Positions 17,385-26,498 of a DNA stretch of 64,000 nt are shown one piece after another. The notes beneath the pieces were generated by a model. It was not told the DNA's origin, made no database searches, and saw only the letters and a list, made by a program, of their open reading frames with translations. The position numbers and the translations under genes were made by a program. The stretch comes from an uncultured Bacilli bacterium (GTDB lineage Bacteria > Bacillota_I > Bacilli_A > RF39 > UBA660): NCBI GenBank assembly GCA_934119965.1, contig CAKOTA010000005.1, positions 12,939-76,938 of the forward strand, given 5' to 3'. Positions within the stretch are counted from its first letter, which is position 1. Each line of letters opens with the position of its first letter.

Positions 17385-17696
17385 TTATACATTAGTTTCA
17401 ACATTTTCTTCTTCAAAATCATTAATTCCTGTGACAATCTTTTCAATAACCTCAATTATATTACTGTATACAGCATTTGAAAGTTTATCATCGTCACCAA
17501 ATGAAGCATCTTTATCTATCTTAATATTATCTCCTTTTTCAAAATTTGAAAACAACGCATCATATAATTTTTTTCCATCAACACTTAATGTGCTTTTAGA
17601 AATTTCAAATATTTCTTCTGTCCCATTGTTAATTGTATATTTATCACTTTTATTATACATCGTATATGTTTTTGTCATATCTTTTCCACCTTTCAT
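17385..17696 (-). CDS. Small acidic protein, partner of PHP-ATPase (overlaps its 3' end by 44 nt)
   Basis: The 103-aa ORF is overlapped by the 797-aa gene on the same strand. A hairpin GAGAGC-AAAA-GCTCTC plus T-run terminator follows at ~17215-17240. Confidence 0.4.
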   Translation of the reverse strand: MKGGKDMTKTYTMYNKSDKYTINNGTEEIFEISKSTLSVDGKKLYDALFSNFEKGDNIKIDKDASFGDDDKLSNAVYSNIIEVIEKIVTGINDFEEENVETNV

Positions 17697-20046
17697 TAAT
17701 AGAATCTATTCCACCTTCTATGTTATCAGCAACAATTTTTAAAATATCATAATCCTTATCACAATATTCCAGTGCTCCATTTTGAATATATATTTTATCA
17801 TTTTCATCTTTTCCTATAAAAATAACATTATCAACATCTAAATTAACAATAAATTGGGGATTATGTGTAATTATAATGACCTGTCTATTTTTACTCATAT
17901 CATAAAAATCTCCAAGTATATTTTTCTTTATAGATGGTTGTGATACATCATCTTCAGGTTGATCAATTATATATATTCTATTATCATCAGTTTGATTAGA
18001 TATTAAATCAAAATAAATTTTAGAATTAAAACCTGATGATAATTCCTTTGTTACATCTTTATCACTAGCATCATTTATTGCTTTATCAATTAAAAAATAA
18101 TTATCTATTTCTTTATCTAATTCATTTTTTAGATTTATTAATTTATCATTATAAGAAATGTCTTTATTCCTATTACTAAATCTATCTGGGATAGTACTTG
18201 AATCAATTGAATTTATATCTTTTACACTTTTTCCTAAAACATTATTAATTAAAGTTAGTAAATTGGCGTTTGATACCTCTTTAGTTTTAGTCTTTGCAAC
18301 AAATCTGTATTTTCCAACCTTATTAGATGTTGTCGGTACTTTTTCCTCTTTTATATTAGGTTCATATTTAACTTTATTCCTGTTCTTATAATAGTAATTT
18401 ACAATATTTTCTGAAAAAGAATCCTTATTACTTTCATAATTTGCTATTTTTTCTGTTTCATCTGTTTTAGTCTTCTTTAGTACTTTATCTTTACTTGTGA
18501 ATTCATCATTAATAATATTTATTTTAGAAATTTCAAATAAATTTTGTTTAATTTTATTATTATATTTTGAAATTAATTTAATATTAGAATTTATACTATC
18601 ATTAATATATTTTTCATCTTCTTTATCAAAAAAATCATTTTCCTGTATTTTATCCAATAAAGAATTAATTGATTCAAAATATTCAACTATTTTACCTATT
18701 TTTTTTATTTTTGAATTAATACTAGTAATAGTTGCTTGAGTTACATTTTTAAAATTTAAAGATTTTGAAGTAGCCTCAATAACACATATATCAAAATTTG
18801 TTATTTTATTAAATGCATTACTTTTTTCTTCTTTATTTTTTAATATTGAAATATAATTTTCAATTTCAGATTTATAAATTTCAATATACTTGCTTACTAG
18901 TGGTTCTGCAGGGAAAAATCCATTTAAGAATTCATCACTGTCAAAAGTTTTATTTTCAAACATTTTTCTAATAGAACCTTGCCCATTGAATTTAGAAATA
19001 TTTGATTCAGGTATGGATGAGTTAATTTTAATTTTATTGTTTATTAAATATTCATCATAACTATCTTTAATTTTTTGGTCATTAAGGTAATTATAATTAG
19101 TTAACTTGTGAATAAGTAAAGATTTACCTATCGAATTATCTCCAATTATAACATTAATACCTTTAGAAAGCTTTATATCATATTTATTGTTGTCTATTTC
19201 AATATTAATACTATCTAAATATTTATCAGTAGTAGAATAAAAATTATTAACATAATTAATTCTTTTTGTATTTGTTACTGCCATTGCCAAACCTCTAAAT
19301 GTTGGTAAACATTTTAAATAAGTAAATGAAAAGTCATCATTTTCTTCTGGATATTTAGACCAATCATGACAATCAGAACCTGTTACGAATCTTAAAGTAA
19401 CATCTTTATACTTTTCTTTATTCTTTTCAATATAATTTTTATTAAATATTTCATTTCTTTTTCTCTTGAATTCAAACGATTCAAAATAATCCATGAAAAC
19501 TAATTCATCAAATTTTTCTTTTCCTAAACTCATTACATCGTGACTTCTTGTCTCTTTACTTGATAAGGTCTCTTTTTGATGTGCTATCATTACAACATTT
19601 AAATCTATATTTTTTAAAATATTAAGATATTTATTTTCAGAAAATGAATTTAATTCAATATCGTCATAAAATGGTTTATTGTTTTTTATATCAAATATTT
19701 CATTTTGTATTTTTTTTATTTTTTCTTCATCTTTATCATCAAAAATTGTAATTACATGTAAAACTTTTTTATCATATGTTACTGAAAATTCAACTGCAGG
19801 AAACACTTTTTTAATACTACCTTTGTTTTCTTCTTGCTTTAACTTATTATATATATTGAAATCAAAGTTATCGTGGTCTGAAATAGAACACATATTTATT
19901 TCTCTTTGATTTAGTTTTTCTATTAATAAATCTATATTATCTAAAGTAGATAAATCTACACAATCATCACTTTCTTTGTGTTTAGATGCAATAGAATGAA
20001 TATGAAAATCAACTTTATTCCCTGTTTCAATAATTTTTTCTATCAT
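17653..20046 (-). CDS. PHP-domain phosphoesterase fused to ABC/SMC-like (AAA_21/OLD-type) ATPase
   Basis: N-terminal PHP motifs are present (VDFHIHS, SISDHDNFD, AVEFSV, LHVITIF). The central Walker A is GDNSIGKSLL. The C-terminal Walker B/D-loop is IYIIDQPEDD and the H-loop is IIITHNPQF. Confidence 0.65.
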   Translation of the reverse strand: MIEKIIETGNKVDFHIHSIASKHKESDDCVDLSTLDNIDLLIEKLNQREINMCSISDHDNFDFNIYNKLKQEENKGSIKKVFPAVEFSVTYDKKVLHVITIFDDKDEEKIKKIQNEIFDIKNNKPFYDDIELNSFSENKYLNILKNIDLNVVMIAHQKETLSSKETRSHDVMSLGKEKFDELVFMDYFESFEFKRKRNEIFNKNYIEKNKEKYKDVTLRFVTGSDCHDWSKYPEENDDFSFTYLKCLPTFRGLAMAVTNTKRINYVNNFYSTTDKYLDSINIEIDNNKYDIKLSKGINVIIGDNSIGKSLLIHKLTNYNYLNDQKIKDSYDEYLINNKIKINSSIPESNISKFNGQGSIRKMFENKTFDSDEFLNGFFPAEPLVSKYIEIYKSEIENYISILKNKEEKSNAFNKITNFDICVIEATSKSLNFKNVTQATITSINSKIKKIGKIVEYFESINSLLDKIQENDFFDKEDEKYINDSINSNIKLISKYNNKIKQNLFEISKINIINDEFTSKDKVLKKTKTDETEKIANYESNKDSFSENIVNYYYKNRNKVKYEPNIKEEKVPTTSNKVGKYRFVAKTKTKEVSNANLLTLINNVLGKSVKDINSIDSSTIPDRFSNRNKDISYNDKLINLKNELDKEIDNYFLIDKAINDASDKDVTKELSSGFNSKIYFDLISNQTDDNRIYIIDQPEDDVSQPSIKKNILGDFYDMSKNRQVIIITHNPQFIVNLDVDNVIFIGKDENDKIYIQNGALEYCDKDYDILKIVADNIEGGIDSINERWKRYDKNIYDV

Positions 20047-20114: not shown

Positions 20115-20228
20115 TCCTTTTTATATATATTATTATAGCATAAATTCTGTTAATTTTATTATAAAATGACACTATGACGCATTGTTTGCGAGTACCCCAC
20201 TCATATTTTTGGTGTCATTGTGTCACTC

Positions 20229-20930
20229 TTAGCAGTTTTGATATTTAAATATTATTATTTTATGGTTTATTCTATTCTTTTTTATCTTATTTGCTATTTC
20301 TGGACCATATATTACTTCAAAACTTTTCTTAGCTTCATTATAAGAATTAAAATTAAAATATGTATCTATTTGTTTATCAACAGTAAAGCCATTGGATAAA
20401 ATCCAATTATTATAATCTCTAGTTCTACTATCTTTATTTCTATTTCTTATTTCTTCAAACTCACTATTTTCATCATTTTCAATTAATATGATTGTTCCAT
20501 TAGATTTTAATAATCGTTTTAACTCACTTAAACATTTATTTCTTTCAGTTATATCTATAATTGTACCTAATACCCACGAACAAACTATTAAATCTACTTT
20601 ATCACTTTCTAAATTGATTTTAGATAAATTAGAACATATAAATTCTGAAGTATCTTTTTTTGATTTTACTTTTGCTTTTTCTAGTTGTTTATCTGATAAA
20701 TCTATTCCAATATATTTTTTTGAATATTCCTCTAATATATTTAAAAACTTACCAGTTCCACATCCAGCATCTAAAACAATTTTATCTTTACATATATGTT
20801 CTAAATAAGAACCAACTTTATTTTCTCCATCTTCAGCAATACTAAAGATTTCATAATAATCATTATTTTCATAATATGCTTTAGAATCTTTTAAGAGATT
20901 TTTGGTATCCATTTTCTTCACCCTTTTCAT
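20229..20930 (-). CDS. Class I SAM-dependent methyltransferase
   Basis: Motif I reads VLDAGCGTGKF. The 233-aa gene is the last in the overlapping operon. Confidence 0.75.
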   Translation of the reverse strand: MKRVKKMDTKNLLKDSKAYYENNDYYEIFSIAEDGENKVGSYLEHICKDKIVLDAGCGTGKFLNILEEYSKKYIGIDLSDKQLEKAKVKSKKDTSEFICSNLSKINLESDKVDLIVCSWVLGTIIDITERNKCLSELKRLLKSNGTIILIENDENSEFEEIRNRNKDSRTRDYNNWILSNGFTVDKQIDTYFNFNSYNEAKKSFEVIYGPEIANKIKKNRINHKIIIFKYQNC

Positions 20931-21963
20931 ACATTTTAGTTTCAGGAAAAATCATATCAACCATATATTTAGCAATATTTTGTGATTTACCTATTGCAGG
21001 TCTGAAATGCATATGCACTCCAGGTACTGTGTTGATTTCAATTATTCTATAACTATCATCATTTTGTAATTTTTCTATTGAATTGGTCATATAATCAATT
21101 CCTACATATGGAAGTCCAGGAAATGCATCTAAAACTCTCATACCAATATCAATAACACTAGGATGTGCTCTATCAGTATAATCTTCACATATTCCTCCCA
21201 TAGCAACATTAGAATTTGGTCTTAAATATACTTTTTCTCCTAAAGTTGGAATAGTATCCATACTTATACCATTTGCTTTAATATATTTATACATTTCTTC
21301 ATCTACAAGTATTTCACATAAAGCATTTGTTCTTGGATTCATTCTACGATAATTTTCTATTGAAATTAATTCTTTTATAGAATGTTCCCCATCTCCATAT
21401 ACATGAGCAGGATCTCTATGAAGTACTGCATAATCTCCATTCTTTGTAACAAACACTCTATATTCTTTTGCATTAAAATATTCTTCTATTAGCACTTTAG
21501 TTTGTAATCCCCTATTTTGAGTTATCTTATCTATTGCTTTTAACAAATCGTTTTCAGAAGTTATATTTGTATAAACATCATAACCATGAGAACCAAAAAC
21601 AGGTTTTAAAACAACAGGGCAATCAAATACATTAAATGCTTTTAAAATATAGTCAGAGTCAGTTATATTGAATACTTCTCCCATAGGAACACTAATACCA
21701 TTATTTTGTAAAATATGTTTTGTTATTCCTTTATCTCCAGCAAGTATTGAAACATTATATGGCATTATTGATGAATCTCTATCATAGATTAATTCCTCAT
21801 GACCATTATAAGATGCTTTTATTAATTCTAAACTCTCATCTAATACTTCAACACTTATACCTCTTTTTAACATTTCATATATCAATATTTTTTGATTAGA
21901 ATGTAAATTTTTATAAATGTTTTCCATTTTACCATCTACTTTCGCCTGAATCGTGGCTTTCAC
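20881..21963 (-). CDS. ATP-grasp family ligase
   Basis: The 360-aa protein has an ATP-grasp fold pattern (VVLKPVFGSHGYDV..., EYRVFV, IEINTVPG). It overlaps the methyltransferase gene by 50 nt and the ESR-repeat gene by 35 nt. Confidence 0.7.
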   Translation of the reverse strand: MKATIQAKVDGKMENIYKNLHSNQKILIYEMLKRGISVEVLDESLELIKASYNGHEELIYDRDSSIMPYNVSILAGDKGITKHILQNNGISVPMGEVFNITDSDYILKAFNVFDCPVVLKPVFGSHGYDVYTNITSENDLLKAIDKITQNRGLQTKVLIEEYFNAKEYRVFVTKNGDYAVLHRDPAHVYGDGEHSIKELISIENYRRMNPRTNALCEILVDEEMYKYIKANGISMDTIPTLGEKVYLRPNSNVAMGGICEDYTDRAHPSVIDIGMRVLDAFPGLPYVGIDYMTNSIEKLQNDDSYRIIEINTVPGVHMHFRPAIGKSQNIAKYMVDMIFPETKMYEKGEENGYQKSLKRF

Positions 21964-22456
21964 TTGAACTACTATACGAAGTATAACTAGAACGAGTAGA
22001 ATCTTTTTTAGGTTTTGCAGGTTTTCTAACTAGTTTTTTTACACTACCTATAAGATCATCTAATTCATCATTAGATTGTTCTAACATTCTTAATTGTTTT
22101 TCTTCTTCTGATTCTCTTTTTGCTTCATCTCTTAATCTTTTTAATTCTTCAATTTTTTGTCTTCTTTGTTCTAAAGCTTGATTAATTCTAGGATTATTAG
22201 ATGTAATAGTAGGCATTTCTCTTTCTAACTTTTCTATTAAAGAATCAATATCATCCAAATTATTATATCTAGAATTATTTACTTGACCTCTAATATCACA
22301 TCTGCTTTCACTATCATTTCTACTTTCATTAGAAAAATTATTACTTGAATAACTACATCTACTTTCTCCAGTATCTCTACTTTCACTTGGTCTAGATACA
22401 TATGATGGAGTATATCTACTTCCTCTACTTTCACTATTATTTCTACTTTCTGACAT
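21929..22456 (-). CDS. ESR-repeat protein (Ser/Arg-rich termini, central coiled coil), candidate modification substrate
   Basis: The 175-aa protein carries seven ESR tripeptides (SESR/GESR/NESR) clustered at both termini and ends in ...SESHDSGESRW. The central segment is a charged helix. It lies 1 nt after the DUF3419 gene and overlaps the ATP-grasp gene. Confidence 0.5.
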   Translation of the reverse strand: MSESRNNSESRGSRYTPSYVSRPSESRDTGESRCSYSSNNFSNESRNDSESRCDIRGQVNNSRYNNLDDIDSLIEKLEREMPTITSNNPRINQALEQRRQKIEELKRLRDEAKRESEEEKQLRMLEQSNDELDDLIGSVKKLVRKPAKPKKDSTRSSYTSYSSSSESHDSGESRW

Positions 22457-22457
22457 T

Positions 22458-23306
22458 TTATTTTCCTCCTCTTTTTAAAATTAAAACACCATCTTTTTTA
22501 TCCTGCGAACTTCCTTCTAAAGCACTCTTAAATTCTACTTGTTGGAAGTTAAAAAATATCTCTTTTACTTTTCTTAAATCATCTATTTCTGTTCTAGGAT
22601 TAGAATTTCCTATATCGTATAAATAAGCAAAATATATTATATCTATTTTTTTTTGAAATTCAATTAATAAATCTCTATATTTTTTTAATATATCACAACT
22701 ATACATTAAACTTAAATAATCAGATATATTCGATAAAAACATATAATCGAAATGTTCATCTACTTTTAAATCTTTTAAACTTGTATTTATATAAGTAATA
22801 TTTGCATCCTTTATTTGTTGTTTTAATAAATTATACTTACTTTTTTCTAAATATAAATTTTGCCACAATTTGCTATTAGGATTAAAATATTTTGTATTAA
22901 ATAAAGAAGAGTTTCTTAATTCAATACCATTATTATCAAATTTAGATAATTGCTCTAACCAAAACATTTTACTTTCATCAGACATATCTAAACTTGAGAT
23001 AATACTATAATCTAAATTCATATTACTTTCAAACAAAAGTAAATTTATAAAATCTTCATAAGATAAATTTTTTAGAGCACTAATTTTTAGATCCATATAT
23101 GGTTTTGTTAATGGATTAATATCAAACGTTGTTATCTCAGCTGCTCCCTGTAATATTACATTTAATATATGGTCCGTTGAACCTGTTACTGTAATAACTT
23201 TTTTACCAGTTAAATTCAAATATTTCATATATCCAGCAATATTTTCAGAAGTAAAAGGATATATACTATTAAATCTTCCCATAACATTTTCCTTTACTTT
23301 TTGCAT
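22458..23306 (-). CDS. DUF3419 family protein (BtaA-like SAM-dependent 3-amino-3-carboxypropyl transferase fold)
   Basis: The 282-aa protein has the pattern VITVTGSTDHILNVILQGAAEITTFDINPLTKPYMDLKISALKNLSYEDF, which resembles the DUF3419 ITSAGxNxLDYL...AVDLNPxQ..LLELK signature. Confidence 0.5.
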   Translation of the reverse strand: MQKVKENVMGRFNSIYPFTSENIAGYMKYLNLTGKKVITVTGSTDHILNVILQGAAEITTFDINPLTKPYMDLKISALKNLSYEDFINLLLFESNMNLDYSIISSLDMSDESKMFWLEQLSKFDNNGIELRNSSLFNTKYFNPNSKLWQNLYLEKSKYNLLKQQIKDANITYINTSLKDLKVDEHFDYMFLSNISDYLSLMYSCDILKKYRDLLIEFQKKIDIIYFAYLYDIGNSNPRTEIDDLRKVKEIFFNFQQVEFKSALEGSSQDKKDGVLILKRGGK

Positions 23307-24738
23307 CTAAAAATCTTACTAAAACTTTATCTCTTTTAATTTCTTCTAAAGAATTATCTCTTAATGATTTAGTTGTGATACAAGTCTTATCACTTTCTAA
23401 TACCCAAGGGCATGGACTTACATTACCAAAATTATTTATATATATAAATTTATCTCCTGCAGGACATCTATGAACAAAATTAGGTTGTTTACCAAAATTG
23501 TAATTAACTATTATTTGTCCATTATATTTTTCTCTTAATTCATCAATTTGAGAAATTAATACTTCGTTTGGTACTGTCTTAACTAATGTTCTATCTTGTC
23601 CAGAAACTGGTTCCATTATTGAAAAGATTATTTCATCAGCTTGTAAACCTACTGAATCCAAAATCAAACTTTCTAAATCGTATTGATTATTTGAATGTAT
23701 AACAGAACCTATTCTTACTTTATTAACTGATTTTCTTAATGCTTCTAAACCTCTTATAGTTCTTTCATAAGTATTATTTCCTCTTACTGATTCATGTTCC
23801 AATTTATCTCCATCTAAACTAACATGTATCATTTTTAACTTTAATTGATTTAATAACTCTACTTTTTCAGGAGTTATTAAAGATGCATTAGTAGATATAT
23901 CAGTAATCAATCTTTCACTTGCATATTTTAAGATTTCTAAAATATCTTTTCTAATAAGTGGTTCTCCACCAGTTATCTTTAAATGTTTGAAATTATGTAA
24001 AACTAATTCATCTATAATATGATAACATTCTTCAGTAGTTAATTCCCCATCAATTTTTTTATTATTACAAGAAAATATACAATAAGAACAATTATAATTA
24101 CATTGATGTGTAATTTCCCAAATTGCCTTACCTTCATTATTTGGTAAAGTAAATTTACATTCCATACTATTTAAAAATTCATTAATTTTGTTTATATCAT
24201 AACCATTATCAGTATTAATTATTAAAAAGTTGTCTGAAAGATATTCTTCTAAATTATCTATTCTTTGTAGTTCAAATCTTTTTAATATATCCTCTTTGGA
24301 TAAATCACTTTCAATTAATCTCTCTAATCTTGTTTTATCAGAAGCAGTAACATAAATTATTTTATCAAACTTATCTCTTAGGTCATCATTAAGTATTAAT
24401 GCCCAATCAACAATTATTGTTTTATTATCAAAACAATCTAAATAATTAAATAAATATTTATACAATACCCCTTTATATTTTTCCATATATTCTTCATTAC
24501 TATAAATATATTTATTTAAAATTAAAGAATTTATTTCATCATATTCTTTTAATTCAGGAATTACATTTTTTAACTCTAAAATATATGAAGCATTTTTATA
24601 TAAACTTCTTCTAAAAATATCTACATCTACATAAATGTAATCAGGACTATATTTTAAAATATCCTCTGATATAGTTGTTTTTCCTGATGACATTCCACCT
24701 GTTATTCCTATTAATCTATTCATACCAACACATCCCAT
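23269..24738 (-). CDS. P-loop nucleoside/nucleotide kinase-like domain fused to radical SAM enzyme with SPASM/twitch-like C-terminus
   Basis: The N-terminal P-loop is GITGGMSSGKTT. The radical SAM cluster motif is CNYNCSYC and the GGEPL motif follows. Additional C-terminal Cys residues (HRCPAGD...SPCPW...CI) are present. Confidence 0.7.
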   Translation of the reverse strand: MGCVGMNRLIGITGGMSSGKTTISEDILKYSPDYIYVDVDIFRRSLYKNASYILELKNVIPELKEYDEINSLILNKYIYSNEEYMEKYKGVLYKYLFNYLDCFDNKTIIVDWALILNDDLRDKFDKIIYVTASDKTRLERLIESDLSKEDILKRFELQRIDNLEEYLSDNFLIINTDNGYDINKINEFLNSMECKFTLPNNEGKAIWEITHQCNYNCSYCIFSCNNKKIDGELTTEECYHIIDELVLHNFKHLKITGGEPLIRKDILEILKYASERLITDISTNASLITPEKVELLNQLKLKMIHVSLDGDKLEHESVRGNNTYERTIRGLEALRKSVNKVRIGSVIHSNNQYDLESLILDSVGLQADEIIFSIMEPVSGQDRTLVKTVPNEVLISQIDELREKYNGQIIVNYNFGKQPNFVHRCPAGDKFIYINNFGNVSPCPWVLESDKTCITTKSLRDNSLEEIKRDKVLVRFLDAKSKGKCYGKI

Positions 24739-26059
24739 ACTTTATTGGAGTAAATGCTGCTATTTTAGTATTCTTATCAGCATTCTCATATATATTCCAA
24801 TCTATATCATTTGAAACCATATTATAATTTTCTTTTTCTAATTCTTTTATAAGTTTATTTATTTCATTAGTTAAATCATTATTTTCTATATTAGGTTTAT
24901 TACTATGAATATATTGTGTTTTATTTACTACTTCTTTATTCTCGTTATATATTGGTGTACCAACACGATATGCTAAATAATGAAGTCTTAATTCGTGAGG
25001 CATTATTGATAAAATTAATTCTTTTGTTTTTATAATATCTTCTTTAGTTGATGATGGATAATCCAAAATAAAACTTGTTCTTATTCTATAACCAATTTTC
25101 TTTGTTTCTTCTATTACTTGTTTTATATAATTAATATCCATATCTTTATTCATTAATTTTAATAATCTTTCACTACCTGTTTCAATACCATAATGAACCC
25201 ATCTAAATCCAACTTTATACATATATTCTAAAAGTTCTTTATCATAACATTTAATACTACATAATGCCCCAAATAAACATTTGATATTTCTTTTTTCAAT
25301 TTCTTTACAAATTTCTATCATTCGTTCTTTATTGACAGTTGCATTATCATCTAAAAAGATTATTTTCTTTGTATTATATTTTTCTATTAACATTTCTATT
25401 TCATTTACAACATCTGTAACATTTCTTCCATTCCACTTACCAAAATAATATGGTGTAGTACAAAATTTACAAGTTCCAACACAACCTCTTGAAGTAATAA
25501 TAGTTCTTGTATCCATATATTTAGTAATATCTAATAAATCTCTATTAGGAATTGGTAACTTATTAAAATCATTTGTTAATATTTTCTTTTCAGTAAAGTA
25601 TATATCTTCTTTATTTTTTATAACTAAATTAGGAATACTTTTTAATTTATCTATATTATTAATATTTTCTATTACATCAGTAATAATTTCGTCTGCTATT
25701 CCTCTAATAACAACATCTATACCATTATCTAAAAATTTTTGATAAAAGTGAGTAGATGTTTTTCCTATCATTATGAATTTAGTAGGTTTATTTGTATTAT
25801 GAATTGTTTCAAATATATTTTGTATTGTTTCAGTAGTATGTAATGGTAATTGATAATCATAGACAAAAACAACTATATTTTCATCAGATAAATATTCATT
25901 AATATTATTATTCATTCTATTAACATCCATATCAATTACTTTTACTCTATCAAATTTTTTATTTATAATTGTTGCTATTTGTAATACATCTAATGGTTCA
26001 GCTAAAATAGACCTATTTGTAAATGGTTTATTTGCTGGATTAACTACTAAAACATTCAT
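24716..26059 (-). CDS. B12-binding domain radical SAM enzyme (class B rSAM)
   Basis: An N-terminal cobalamin-binding Rossmann-like region is followed by the radical SAM motif CVGTCKFC. The 447-aa gene is first in the operon and has an extended -10 TGCTATAAT upstream at ~26085-26110. Confidence 0.75.
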   Translation of the reverse strand: MNVLVVNPANKPFTNRSILAEPLDVLQIATIINKKFDRVKVIDMDVNRMNNNINEYLSDENIVVFVYDYQLPLHTTETIQNIFETIHNTNKPTKFIMIGKTSTHFYQKFLDNGIDVVIRGIADEIITDVIENINNIDKLKSIPNLVIKNKEDIYFTEKKILTNDFNKLPIPNRDLLDITKYMDTRTIITSRGCVGTCKFCTTPYYFGKWNGRNVTDVVNEIEMLIEKYNTKKIIFLDDNATVNKERMIEICKEIEKRNIKCLFGALCSIKCYDKELLEYMYKVGFRWVHYGIETGSERLLKLMNKDMDINYIKQVIEETKKIGYRIRTSFILDYPSSTKEDIIKTKELILSIMPHELRLHYLAYRVGTPIYNENKEVVNKTQYIHSNKPNIENNDLTNEINKLIKELEKENYNMVSNDIDWNIYENADKNTKIAAFTPIKYGMCWYE

Positions 26060-26198
26060 AATAAATCCCCCCTTAAAAGTTGGTTTCTATTATAGCACAA
26101 AATTCATTAAATAGCTATTCTTTTCTTGTTTTTATAAAAAAATACTATGATATAACTTATTTACCATTATTAGCAATAACATATCATAGTATTAATTT

Positions 26199-26498
26199 TT
26201 AATTTTTCTTAGGCAGTTTATCATAATCATACTTTTCCATAATTGGATTGAGTAAGTCATTTGCTTTTGTTAATTCTTCTACTGCTTGTTCTAGTGTATA
26301 TTCACTTTTACCTTCTTTAAGTAATTTTAAATGTTCTGTAACTTCAAATATTATAAATCCTACTTCTCTTGCTTTTTCTATTTTATTAAAATCAAATTGT
26401 AATAAATCAGTTTCTGATTCTTTATATTGTTCAATTAAGTCTTTTAAATCTTTACTGGATTTATTTGCATATTTATCTTTAGAAAAATAGAAAAGCAT
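26199..26498 (-). CDS. Hypothetical protein
   Basis: The 99-aa ORF is followed by a long hairpin terminator (ATACTATGATAT ... ATATCATAGTAT plus T7) at 26141-26195. GGTATCTA direct repeats lie upstream at 26596-26650. Confidence 0.4.
   Translation of the reverse strand: MLFYFSKDKYANKSSKDLKDLIEQYKESETDLLQFDFNKIEKAREVGFIIFEVTEHLKLLKEGKSEYTLEQAVEELTKANDLLNPIMEKYDYDKLPKKN

What the first reader, a model, noticed from the sequence alone, without database searches (positions are those of the whole stretch)
20229..26059. Six-gene overlapping operon: two radical SAMs + ATP-grasp + ACP-transferase-like + methyltransferase around an ESR-repeat protein
All six ORFs are on the minus strand. Their junctions are overlaps of 23, 38, 35 and 50 nt and a 1-nt gap, which indicates tight translational coupling. 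A single extended -10 promoter lies upstream of 26059. The enzyme set is a B12-binding rSAM (CVGTCKFC), a P-loop kinase::rSAM/SPASM fusion (CNYNCSYC plus C-terminal Cys cluster), DUF3419 (BtaA-like SAM 3-amino-3-carboxypropyl transferase fold), an ATP-grasp ligase and a class I methyltransferase. This resembles RiPP or protein-PTM cassettes or a hypermodified-nucleoside pathway (compare acp transfer plus methylation plus ATP-dependent ligation in diphthamide and wybutosine logic). It does not match any described cluster that I recognise. A non-enzymatic repeat protein is embedded in it.
Basis: partly seen in the sequence, partly recalled or inferred. Interest (0 to 1): 0.85.

Follow-up and report, generated by a model that had tools for sequence, protein, structure and literature searches.

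The report
Enzyme cassette modifying an ESR-repeat protein
A six-gene operon in a gut bacterium pairs five enzymes with a small protein whose floppy ends repeat the motif Ser/Gly-Glu-Ser-Arg. The same set recurs in very distant microbes and has never been described, so it probably installs an unknown chemical modification on that protein.

Summary
**Observation.** It is confirmed. Six minus-strand genes at 20229-26059 form one compact operon, with an extended -10 promoter upstream and a hairpin terminator downstream. They encode:
- a B12-type radical SAM (rSAM) enzyme;
- a CoaE-like kinase fused to a SPASM/twitch rSAM;
- a DUF3419 SAM-dependent transferase;
- a 175-aa ESR-repeat protein;
- a cyanophycin-synthetase-like ATP-grasp ligase;
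- a class I methyltransferase (MT).

**Synteny.**
- The cassette, always including the small protein, is syntenic in more than 25 loci with unrelated flanks.
- These come from gut Bacilli, a large Clostridia clade, a 46 %-GC contig, a genetic-code-25 (Gracilibacteria-like) contig and a Woesearchaeota MAG.
- Distant relatives fuse kinase, rSAM, DUF3419 and MT into single proteins.

**The motif.** The small proteins are otherwise unalignable between clades, yet all keep two or more [S/G]-E-[S/D] motifs in disordered tails (124 observed, 24 expected). Glu is the only invariant residue.

**Known families.** No curated family (NCBIfam, Pfam, PADLOC) and no paper I could search describes the system.

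**Best reading (confidence about 0.6).** This is a self-contained maturation cassette that hypermodifies the repeat motif of a ribosomally made protein. Its closest analogue is the HXS antiphage system. The chemistry and the biological role (defence is possible) remain inferred.

The parts
26089..26097 (-). Extended -10 promoter element TGcTATAAT. The Shine-Dalgarno GGGGGG lies at 26067-26072.
   Evidence: Read directly from the sequence. The generic promoter scan is not informative in this AT-rich DNA.
24716..26059 (-). Class-B (B12-binding-domain type) radical SAM enzyme, 447 aa, with CVGTCKFC.
   Evidence: Pfam Radical_SAM 69.9 bits. The best NCBIfam matches are ApyD (RiPP C-methylase, 132 bits), the MCR glutamine C-methyltransferase (112 bits) and PhpK, all far below their cutoffs. 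Present in every locus.
24169..24723 (-). CoaE-like P-loop kinase domain of the fusion protein (about aa 1-185).
   Evidence: Pfam CoaE 47 bits (cutoff 27); TIGR00152 59.7 bits, below its 65.55 cutoff. The P-loop GGMSSGKTT and a DVD motif (compare the CoaE DAD motif, recalled from established knowledge) are invariant in 23 homologues. It is a separate gene in the Clostridia, Woesearchaeota and code-25 loci.
23269..24141 (-). Radical SAM / SPASM-twitch domain of the fusion protein (about aa 195-484), with CNYNCSYC and C-terminal Cys420, 438, 448 and 480.
   Evidence: Radical_SAM 83 bits; SPASM 18.5 bits, below cutoff. Full-length alignments are to peptide maturases: MftC 104 bits, StsB 103, SkfB, PqqE.
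22458..23282 (-). DUF3419-family SAM-dependent transferase (274 aa), the family of the betaine-lipid enzyme BtaA.
21929..22456 (-). ESR-repeat protein, 175 aa, the presumed substrate. Disordered tails (aa 1-65 and 144-175) carry 8 (S/G/N)-E-S-(R/H) motifs and the protein ends GESRW. A helical core spans aa 67-143.
   Evidence: Sequence. AF2 gives disordered tails and helices at 67-80 and 89-143. Strong Shine-Dalgarno. No Pfam or NCBIfam family. A counterpart is present in all loci.
20881..21927 (-). ATP-grasp ligase, 348 aa, of the cyanophycin-synthetase G-domain / GshAB C-terminal type.
   Evidence: NCBIfam cyanophycin synthetase 232 bits (cutoff 850), GshAB 197 bits. PDB hits CphA1 at 5e-41 and GshAB at 3e-37. 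Absent from the code-25 locus L085.
20229..20909 (-). Class I SAM-dependent methyltransferase, 226 aa.
   Evidence: Methyltransf_11 75 bits. Fused to a Metallophos domain in some Clostridia loci. Fused to rSAM::DUF3419 in others. Absent next to the cassette in L023.
20163..20229 (-). Stem-loop followed by UUUUAUAAU: the likely terminator of the operon.
   Evidence: MFE -21.9 kcal/mol, z = -4.3, 0 of 200 shuffles as stable. The next gene has its own TGcTATAAT.

Best explanation
The six genes are one operon encoding a self-contained maturation system for a ribosomally made protein.

**Substrate.** The 175-aa ESR protein is the substrate. A helical core (aa 67-143, beginning with the conserved YNxLDDIDxLIExLE helix in the Bacilli clade) probably serves as a docking or oligomerisation handle. 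Its disordered Ser-rich tails present multiple copies of [S/G]-E-[S/D]-x to the enzymes.

**Enzymes.**
- The invariant core is the B12-type rSAM, the CoaE-like kinase, the SPASM/twitch rSAM and the DUF3419 SAM-dependent transferase. Together they build a multi-step side-chain modification centred on the invariant Glu.
- The ATP-grasp ligase and the class I methyltransferase add later decorations.

**Most likely steps (inferred).**
- Radical C-H functionalisation and C-methylation of the Glu or a neighbouring residue, by the two rSAMs.
- Alkyl transfer from SAM (3-amino-3-carboxypropyl or methyl) by the DUF3419 enzyme.
- Phosphorylation of a hydroxyl that is installed, not native, by the kinase.
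- N- or O-methylation by the MT.
- ATP-dependent amide ligation to a free carboxylate by the ATP-grasp.

**Fate and role.** No protease or exporter is conserved and there is no signal peptide, so the product probably stays a cytoplasmic modified protein. Its role is unknown; anti-phage defence is one candidate.

**Shown versus inferred.** Shown: operon structure, domain identities, strict co-inheritance, domain fusions, motif conservation. Inferred: that the small protein is the substrate, the target residue, every chemical step, and the role.
For: 1. **Co-inheritance.** The small protein lies between DUF3419 and the ATP-grasp in every Bacilli-clade locus long enough to show it. It is also present in the Clostridia, 46 %-GC, digester, Woesearchaeota and code-25 versions, with unrelated flanks.
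2. **Motif survival.** Across clades the small proteins lose all alignable similarity but keep the motif, at the N-terminus, the C-terminus or both.
   - Aggregate count: 124 [S/G]E[SD] against 23.8 expected, with two or more in each of 25 proteins.
   - ESR alone: 88 against 5.8.
3. **Glu is the only invariant residue.** L005 has no Arg in its repeats, and L084 uses E-D instead of E-S.
4. **Rosetta-stone fusions.** rSAM::DUF3419, rSAM::DUF3419::MT and CoaE::rSAM::DUF3419 tie four of the five enzymes to one pathway.
5. **Nearest characterised relatives act on peptides or proteins.**
   - B12-rSAM: ApyD and the MCR Gln C-methylase.
   - SPASM rSAM: MftC, StsB, SkfB and PqqE, over the full length.
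6. **Substrate-like architecture.** AF2 shows disordered motif-bearing tails around a confident helix.
7. **Precedent.** The HXS system is two rSAMs maturing a tripeptide-repeat protein effector (PMC13128918).
Against: - There is no direct evidence of modification.
- No RRE/PqqD-like recognition domain was detected in any enzyme.
- The CoaE family phosphorylates a nucleotide ribose, not protein.
- Nucleotide-handling genes (NUDIX, PRTase, MazG, HD, UDG-like) recur near some cassettes, which hints at a nucleotide-like moiety or a small-molecule product.
- The relatives of the ATP-grasp ligate alpha-carboxylates of small peptides, not protein side chains.
- The [S/G]-E-[S/D] motif was defined post hoc from these same sequences.
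Confidence: 0.6

Rival explanations
1. The cassette makes a small molecule (a cofactor- or nucleoside-like compound). The ESR protein is either a sacrificial precursor whose E-S-x units are excised (PQQ/mycofactocin logic) or a carrier on which the compound is assembled and then released (LysW/pearlin logic).
For: - The kinase is CoaE-like, i.e. from a ribose-3'-OH kinase family.
- The ATP-grasp belongs to the clade that extends alpha-carboxylates (CphA G domain, GshB, Ngg).
- Many small proteins end in GESRW or GES, which looks like a C-terminal handle.
- MftC and PqqE are among the best full-length rSAM matches.
- NUDIX, PRTase, MazG and HD neighbours occur in some loci.
- The sinefungin pathway combines a B12-rSAM, a ribose kinase and a vestigial RiPP-like peptide.
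Against: - No peptidase is conserved in or next to the cassette.
- The motifs are many and internal, and they sit at either end. Several proteins lack any C-terminal motif.
- The nucleotide-handling neighbours are absent from most loci, e.g. L005, L006, L008, L083 and L088.
Confidence: 0.2
2. The modified (or unmodified) ESR protein is the effector of an anti-phage defence system, analogous to HXS. This concerns biological role and is compatible with the best explanation.
For: - In the window the cassette abuts a TrlF/Ppl-like PHP-AAA ATPase.
- In near-identical strains an Abi_2/AbiD gene is inserted upstream and a ResIII helicase lies downstream.
- The code-25 locus sits beside AriAB (316 bits) and PDC-S19 (352 bits).
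- L084 sits beside HipA, Mrr and NikA-like genes.
- The flanks differ in almost every lineage, as expected of an accessory island.
- HXS is a precedent.
Against: - Most loci have housekeeping or unrelated neighbours: aaRS genes, cell-wall genes, an M13 peptidase.
- PADLOC models give only generic rSAM, MT or coiled-coil hits to the cassette proteins.
- No relatives were found in phage, plasmid or IMG/VR collections, so there is no sign of an arms-race partner.
Confidence: 0.25
3. The ESR protein is not a substrate but a scaffold, chaperone or regulator for an enzyme complex that modifies something else (a nucleic acid, lipid or metabolite). The repeats would then serve binding, e.g. of RNA or metal.
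For: - It has a coiled-coil core with charged, disordered tails.
- The characterised DUF3419 relative, BtaA, acts on a lipid (established knowledge).
- The CoaE family acts on nucleotides.
Against: - A pure scaffold would be expected to conserve its folded part, not a short motif. Here the helical core is replaced between clades while the motif persists.
- The motif copy number and position vary freely, as in multi-core precursors.
Confidence: 0.1
4. The six genes are a known cofactor or natural-product pathway with a canonical assignment.
For: The individual domains are all common ones.
Against: - Every NCBIfam hit is 3- to 10-fold below its equivalog cutoff.
- DUF3419 and the ESR protein have no NCBIfam model.
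- NCBI names the gene only 'DUF3419 family protein'.
- Only 6 papers mention DUF3419 and none concerns this cassette. The other nine searches found nothing either.
Confidence: 0.03

Closest known systems
HXS antiphage system (HxsA-D; Nat Commun 2026, PMC13128918)
   Same: Two radical SAM enzymes are encoded with a protein that carries a repeated tripeptide motif, and the enzymes mature that protein into a functional effector. It is an accessory, island-borne cassette.
   Different: - The motif is His-x-Ser, not [S/G]-E-[S/D].
- HxsA has a signal peptide and a peptidoglycan-binding domain and acts in the periplasm, whereas the ESR protein has neither.
- HXS has no B12 domain, kinase, DUF3419, ATP-grasp or MT.
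- The HxsB model scores 59 bits against a cutoff of 370.
rSAM-dependent RiPP and protein maturation (ApyD in aminopyruvatides; MCR glutamine C-methylase; MftC, StsB, SkfB, PqqE)
   Same: These are the best-scoring characterised relatives of the two rSAMs. They show the same logic of a ribosomal substrate encoded beside its rSAM enzymes.
   Different: - All scores are far below family cutoffs.
- No leader-plus-RRE arrangement, no protease and no exporter are present.
- The substrate is a 110-215-aa protein with many sites, not a short single-core peptide.
Betaine-lipid pair BtaA/BtaB, and diphthamide biosynthesis
   Same: A DUF3419 (BtaA-family) SAM-dependent transferase is paired with a class I methyltransferase. 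Adding an ATP-dependent ligase gives the formal sequence ACP transfer, then N-methylation, then amidation, as seen in diphthamide. This comparison rests on established knowledge plus the Pfam hit.
   Different: - Only the N-terminal third of the DUF3419 model aligns, and the protein is about 110 aa shorter.
- The acceptor here is presumably a protein, not diacylglycerol.
- Diphthamide uses a Dph2-type rSAM for ACP transfer and a non-ATP-grasp amidase.
- ACP transfer was not tested.
Cyanophycin synthetase CphA1 G domain / GshAB C-terminal domain
   Same: The ATP-grasp is a clear homologue (5e-41 to CphA1 structures and 3e-37 to GshAB).
   Different: It is stand-alone and lacks the CphA N and M domains. 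It scores 232 bits against a cutoff of 850. Its substrates are unknown.
Sinefungin pathway (SinC B12-rSAM, SinF ribose kinase, vestigial peptide SinA; bioRxiv 10.64898/2026.05.21.726688)
   Same: It combines a B12-dependent rSAM and a kinase acting on an installed adenosyl ribose with a RiPP-like peptide gene. This offers a rationale for a CoaE-like kinase in a peptide cassette.
   Different: It is a Streptomyces small-molecule pathway acting on free arginine. Arg is not required in the motif here (L005, L084). No sequence comparison was possible.

Membership tests
RiPP biosynthetic gene cluster (general definition) | The precursor gene is encoded next to its modifying enzymes. | tested here: met
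   The small repeat protein lies inside the cassette in all loci examined.
RiPP biosynthetic gene cluster (general definition) | A leader/core organisation with a recognition element (RRE) in a maturase. | tested here: inconclusive
   No PqqD/RRE domain was found by Pfam. A conserved helix (YNxLDDIDxLIExLE) could be a recognition sequence, but only within the Bacilli clade.
RiPP biosynthetic gene cluster (general definition) | A leader peptidase and/or exporter releases a small mature peptide. | tested here: not met
   No protease or transporter is conserved among flanks. A single locus (L019) has a C39-ABC exporter.
HXS system | HxsB/HxsC-type rSAM equivalogs and a His-x-Ser repeat effector with signal peptide and peptidoglycan-binding domain. 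| tested here: not met
   The HxsB model scores 59 bits against a cutoff of 370. The motif is different, and no signal peptide or PG-binding domain is present.
DUF3419 / BtaA (SAM:diacylglycerol 3-amino-3-carboxypropyl transferase) | Pfam PF11899 gathering score. | tested here: met
   56.6 bits against 28.2, but only model positions 6-129 of 385 align. The same holds for all relatives, including the fusions.
DUF3419 / BtaA (SAM:diacylglycerol 3-amino-3-carboxypropyl transferase) | Transfers the aminocarboxypropyl group of SAM rather than the methyl group. | not testable with these tools
Dephospho-CoA kinase (CoaE) | Family score, the P-loop, and the catalytic Asp motif. | tested here: inconclusive
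   Pfam CoaE scores 47 bits against a cutoff of 27, but equivalog TIGR00152 scores 59.7 against a cutoff of 65.55. The P-loop and DxD are invariant. It is fused to an rSAM, so it is CoaE-like rather than CoaE.
Class B (cobalamin-dependent) radical SAM methyltransferases | An N-terminal B12-binding domain plus a CxxxCxxC rSAM core. | tested here: inconclusive
   CVGTCKFC is present. NCBIfam B12-rSAM models align from residues 1-28 onward. Pfam B12-binding is not significant in the window protein and only 'weak' in relatives.
Cyanophycin synthetase | N, G (ATP-grasp) and M (Mur-ligase-like) domains; equivalog score. | tested here: not met
   Only the G-domain region aligns (model positions 165-475 of 862), at 232 bits against a cutoff of 850.
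Prokaryotic viperin (pVip), with or without kinase | A viperin-family rSAM equivalog. | tested here: not met
   NCBIfam viperin_w_prok scores 59.5 bits against a cutoff of 180. The PADLOC pVip score of 75 bits reflects generic rSAM-core similarity, and SPASM maturases score higher.

The most novel reading that the evidence does not exclude
The cassette installs a previously unknown, multi-step modification on glutamate residues of [S/G]-E-[S/D] repeats. One possibility is a SAM-derived aminocarboxypropyl/betaine appendage. Another is a radical-installed adenosyl (nucleoside) appendage that the CoaE-like kinase then phosphorylates. Either would create a new class of hypermodified, ribosomally encoded protein that is widespread in human-gut Bacilli and Clostridia and has been exchanged with CPR bacteria and DPANN archaea. 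It might act as an effector in phage defence.
Probability: 0.35. Interest if true: 0.85.

Novelty: new variant of a known kind. Interest (0 to 1): 0.72.

Why it matters
**Prevalence.** The cassette is common. The DUF3419-type enzyme has 937 relatives at E <= 1e-10 among 50 %-identity cluster representatives. Single alleles are seen on hundreds of metagenome contigs. The loci come from human, mouse, rabbit and rumen gut MAGs.

**It is undescribed.** It has no name, no curated model for its central protein, and no literature I could find.

**Unusual chemistry.** Four SAM-using enzymes, a nucleotide-type kinase and a cyanophycin-type ligase surround a substrate whose only invariant feature is a three-residue motif. 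This suggests chemistry not yet seen on proteins.

**It is testable.** The substrate and all enzymes are encoded in 5.8 kb, so the question can be addressed by co-expression and mass spectrometry.

**Broader point.** Together with HXS, it would show that rSAM-matured repeat proteins are a recurring design and not a one-off.

Tried and rejected
- **Known-pathway assignment.** NCBIfam, Pfam and PADLOC scans of all six proteins give no equivalog-level hit.
- **Viperin-kinase reading.** It was suggested by PADLOC pVip hits and rejected because SPASM maturases score higher and the viperin cutoff is not met.
- **Literature.** Ten searches (DUF3419, BtaA, ACP transfer, CoaE plus rSAM, cyanophycin plus RiPP, and others) found nothing on this cassette. 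They yielded only the analogues HXS and sinefungin.
- **Mobile-element origin.** No relatives were found in IMG/VR, in GenBank phages or in PLSDB plasmids.
- **Conserved neighbours.**
  - Clustering of flanking ORFs across 20 loci found no seventh universal gene.
  - NUDIX and tandem roughly 108-aa Cys-rich genes recur in only 5-7 loci.
- **Ser or Arg as the target.** This is disfavoured. L005 has no Arg in its repeats, L084 has E-D, and the -1 residue alternates Ser/Gly.
- **DNA-level tandem repeat as the source of the ESR repeats.** TRF finds none of note.
- **Fold search of the DUF3419 model.**
  - It gives only the generic class I SAM fold.
  - The AFDB library was unavailable.
- **Riboswitch search.** Rfam at gathering threshold found no riboswitch in the window.

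Full report
**1. What is in the window**

The region 20229-26059 holds six minus-strand ORFs.

- a radical SAM (rSAM) protein with CVGTCKFC whose whole length aligns to B12-binding rSAM families (ApyD 132 bits, MCR glutamine C-methyltransferase 112, PhpK, BchE, HpnJ/R);
- a fusion of a CoaE-like P-loop kinase (Pfam CoaE 47 bits) with a SPASM/twitch rSAM (CNYNCSYC);
- a DUF3419 protein (56.6 bits, N-terminal third of the model only);
- a 175-aa protein with no family;
- an ATP-grasp ligase that matches the cyanophycin synthetase G domain (232 bits) and the GshAB C-terminal domain (197 bits), confirmed against solved structures (CphA1 5e-41);
- a class I methyltransferase (MT).

None of these hits approaches a curated equivalog cutoff.

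The reported overlaps hold for maximal ORFs.
- Gene calls on 99 %-identical contigs, and the uniform 484-aa length of about 120 homologues, point to later starts. On the near-identical contig L001 the junctions are 8 nt, 14 nt, a 1-nt gap, a 1-nt gap and 32 nt (29 nt in window coordinates).
- An extended -10 (TGcTATAAT, 26097-26089) and a strong Shine-Dalgarno precede the first gene.
- A stable hairpin with a U-run follows the last gene.
- The next gene downstream has its own extended -10.
- The six genes are therefore one transcription unit, as far as sequence can show.

**2. The ESR protein**

- The protein has (S/G/N)-E-S-(R/H) eight times, six in residues 1-53 and two in residues 164-175, and ends GESRW.
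- AlphaFold2 predicts residues 1-65 and 144-175 as disordered, with helices at 67-80 and 89-143.
- The gene has a strong ribosome-binding site.
- The repeats are not a DNA tandem repeat.

**3. Synteny**

*Bacilli clade.*
- The kinase::rSAM fusion has 713 hits, and the best 120 are all full-length at 62-99 % identity.
- Contexts from metagenomes and from one-genome-per-species GTDB contigs show the same six genes in the same order in about 20 species-level 'Bacilli' gut MAGs (Hadza human, mouse, rabbit, goat rumen).
- tblastn and ORF clustering confirm this.
- The flanks differ almost everywhere: recG and an ATPase, cell-wall genes, a GH10-PHP protein, aaRS genes, FtsK-FHA, an M13 peptidase.
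- The cassette is therefore an autonomous accessory unit.

*Clostridia clade.*
- A second large clade (more than 120 clusters) lies in Clostridia-type genomes.
- There the kinase is a separate gene, and the MT is sometimes fused to a Metallophos phosphoesterase.

*More distant versions.*
- A Woesearchaeota MAG (L028).
- A 31 %-GC digester contig (L088).
- A 46 %-GC contig (L084).
- A contig that must be read with genetic code 25, because KIT**EPF corresponds to KITGGEPF (L085).

*Family size.* A full HMMER scan of 1.84 billion cluster representatives finds 937 relatives of the DUF3419-type protein at E <= 1e-10.

*Domain fusions.* Eleven of the best 150 relatives are long proteins of 581-858 aa, and Pfam on six of them shows fusions. 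This is Rosetta-stone evidence that these enzymes work on one substrate. The fusions are:
- rSAM::DUF3419;
- rSAM::DUF3419::MT;
- CoaE::rSAM-SPASM::DUF3419.

*Dispensable parts.* The ATP-grasp is missing in L085 and the MT in L023. The invariant core is thus the B12-rSAM, the kinase, the rSAM, DUF3419 and the small protein.

**4. The motif**

A small ORF is present in every locus.

Within the Bacilli clade its helical core is conserved (YNxLDDIDxLIExLE followed by a coiled coil). The Clostridia, archaeal, CPR and other versions have unrelated folded parts.

What persists everywhere is the short motif in Ser-rich tails, at the N-terminus, the C-terminus or both:

| Lineage | Examples |
|---|---|
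| Clostridia | MSESRxGESR |
| L088 (digester) | SSSESRF...SGESHD...GESRE |
| Woesearchaeota | ...SGSGESRVGES* |
| Code-25 contig | ...YGESSSESSSESN...SGESSSSRGES* |
| L084 | MSEDH, GGEDY, SGEDL, RGEDL |

- One complete Bacilli cassette (L005) has only SSESH and SSESD, with no Arg.
- ESR occurs 88 times against 5.8 +/- 2.4 expected.
- The generalised [S/G]-E-[S/D] occurs 124 times against 23.8 expected, at least twice in each of 25 proteins.
- This last motif was defined post hoc from the same sequences, so its count is descriptive.
- Glu is the only invariant residue. Neither flanking Ser nor the Arg is.

**5. Interpretation**

*Why the small protein is the substrate.* A motif that survives complete turnover of the rest of the protein, varies freely in copy number and position, and is always co-encoded with the same enzymes is best explained as the enzymes' target.

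*Support from homology.*
- The nearest characterised relatives of both rSAMs modify peptides or proteins.
- The SPASM rSAM aligns over its full length to MftC, StsB, SkfB and PqqE. Tetrapyrrole enzymes match only the core.

*Product and fate.* I therefore read the cassette as a maturation system that hypermodifies a ribosomally made protein at Glu-centred motifs. With no conserved protease, exporter or signal peptide, the product likely remains a protein.

*The chemistry is inferred only.*
- **B12-rSAM:** its relatives C-methylate Gln and Asp.
- **DUF3419:** it is the BtaA family, but the predicted fold (pLDDT 89) cannot distinguish alkyl transfer from methyl transfer.
- **Kinase:** because no hydroxyl residue is invariant in the motif, it probably phosphorylates an installed group.
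- **ATP-grasp:** its relatives ligate amines to alpha-carboxylates. That would fit the free carboxylate of an aminocarboxypropyl group (diphthamide-like logic), but this is speculation.

*A sinefungin-like alternative.* The newly described sinefungin pathway has a B12-rSAM that adenosylates arginine, followed by a ribose kinase. A nucleoside appendage would explain a CoaE-like kinase and the occasional NUDIX, PRTase and MazG neighbours. However, Arg is dispensable here.

**6. Role**

*For defence.*
- In the window the cassette lies next to a TrlF/Ppl-like PHP-AAA ATPase.
- Sister strains carry an Abi_2/AbiD gene or a ResIII helicase beside it.
- The code-25 locus is flanked by AriAB (316 bits) and PDC-S19 (352 bits).
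- L084 is flanked by HipA, Mrr and NikA-like genes.
- The HXS system (two rSAMs maturing a His-x-Ser-repeat effector that blocks phage DNA entry; PMC13128918) is a functional precedent.

*Against defence.* Most loci have no defence neighbours.

I give defence about 0.25.

**7. Comparison and novelty**

The system works like an rSAM-dependent RiPP or protein maturation cassette, and most resembles HXS in design. It fails the membership tests for HXS, cyanophycin synthetase, viperin and canonical CoaE. It meets only domain-level criteria (DUF3419, Radical_SAM, ATP-grasp, class I MT).

No curated family or searchable paper covers it. NCBI calls the gene only 'DUF3419 family protein'.

I rate it a new variant of a known kind: a new enzyme set, a new motif and an unknown modification within the known concept of ribosomal-substrate maturation.

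**8. Limits**

- There are no experimental data.
- The literature library is incomplete, since subscription journals are missing.
- Taxonomic labels are those of MAG submitters.
- The motif generalisation is post hoc.

Noticed in passing
window 17653-20046 (-) and 17385-17696 (-): An 797-aa PHP-domain/AAA-like ATPase lies downstream of the cassette. It matches TrlF family at 127 bits, with weak hits to Ppl, GajA and PtuA. It has its own extended -10 (TGcTATAAT at about 20139-20131) and is followed by an overlapping 103-aa ORF of no known family. It looks like a separate two-gene defence module.
   Followed up: partly
L001-L003 6399-7916, compared with window 26199-26498: In 99 %-identical strains an Abi_2/AbiD-like gene (505 aa) sits between recG and the cassette. 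The window has only a 99-aa ORF there. The site downstream of recG is a variable insertion hotspot. In the window it is bounded by the recG terminator (26708-26687) and a strong promoter-like site (26546-26519).
   Followed up: partly
L004 14691-17693; also L010, L012, L016, L025: Arrays of 5-6 tandem paralogous genes of roughly 90-115 aa, Cys-rich (GCGA...FKCPCCGKET, zinc-ribbon-like) and without a Pfam family. They are followed by an NrtR-like NUDIX (about 260 aa) and a 182-aa NUDIX. The 182-aa NUDIX family also flanks Clostridia-clade cassettes (L027, L079).
   Followed up: partly
L085 and L086 (whole loci): These contigs must be read with UGA = Gly (genetic code 25, Gracilibacteria/Absconditabacteria-like). 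The gene caller's products contain many in-frame stops under code 11. Here the cassette lacks the ATP-grasp and sits beside AriAB (PARIS) and PDC-S19 defence genes.
   Followed up: yes
L004 6908-7690; L012 5660-6475; L016 5701-6483: A short (260-272 aa) S-adenosylmethionine-synthetase-like gene lies 1-2 kb upstream of the cassette in three related MAGs. Only the N-terminal MAT domain is detected. It may provide a local SAM supply for a cassette with four SAM-using enzymes.
   Followed up: no
L079 769-5732 and 11688-16059; L081 1-5682 and 11376-15062: Clostridia-clade cassettes are embedded in long same-strand runs of nucleotide-handling genes. These include an Apyc1-like metallo-beta-lactamase, GNAT-DUF402, AAA_18/AAA_33 kinases, a UDG-like gene, HD, PRTase, NUDIX, MazG and a Metallophos::methyltransferase fusion. 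L083 has the bare cassette, so these are not obligatory partners.
   Followed up: partly
L019 10262-10909 and 12847-14961: The small protein here contains an internal duplication of a roughly 39-aa block (ESGESRISSESRGLSYADWLKT...GGLSSQGEMHA). A C39-peptidase ABC exporter lies just downstream, the only exporter seen next to any cassette.
   Followed up: no
window 1-64000: The window is about 24 % GC with persistently negative GC skew, and most genes are on the minus strand. Its closest genomes are 'uncultured Bacilli bacterium' MAGs from Hadza gut samples (L022 93 %, L008 89 % identity for the fusion protein). Single alleles of the DUF3419 gene are recorded on up to 558 contigs, so the host is a common gut organism.
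   Followed up: partly
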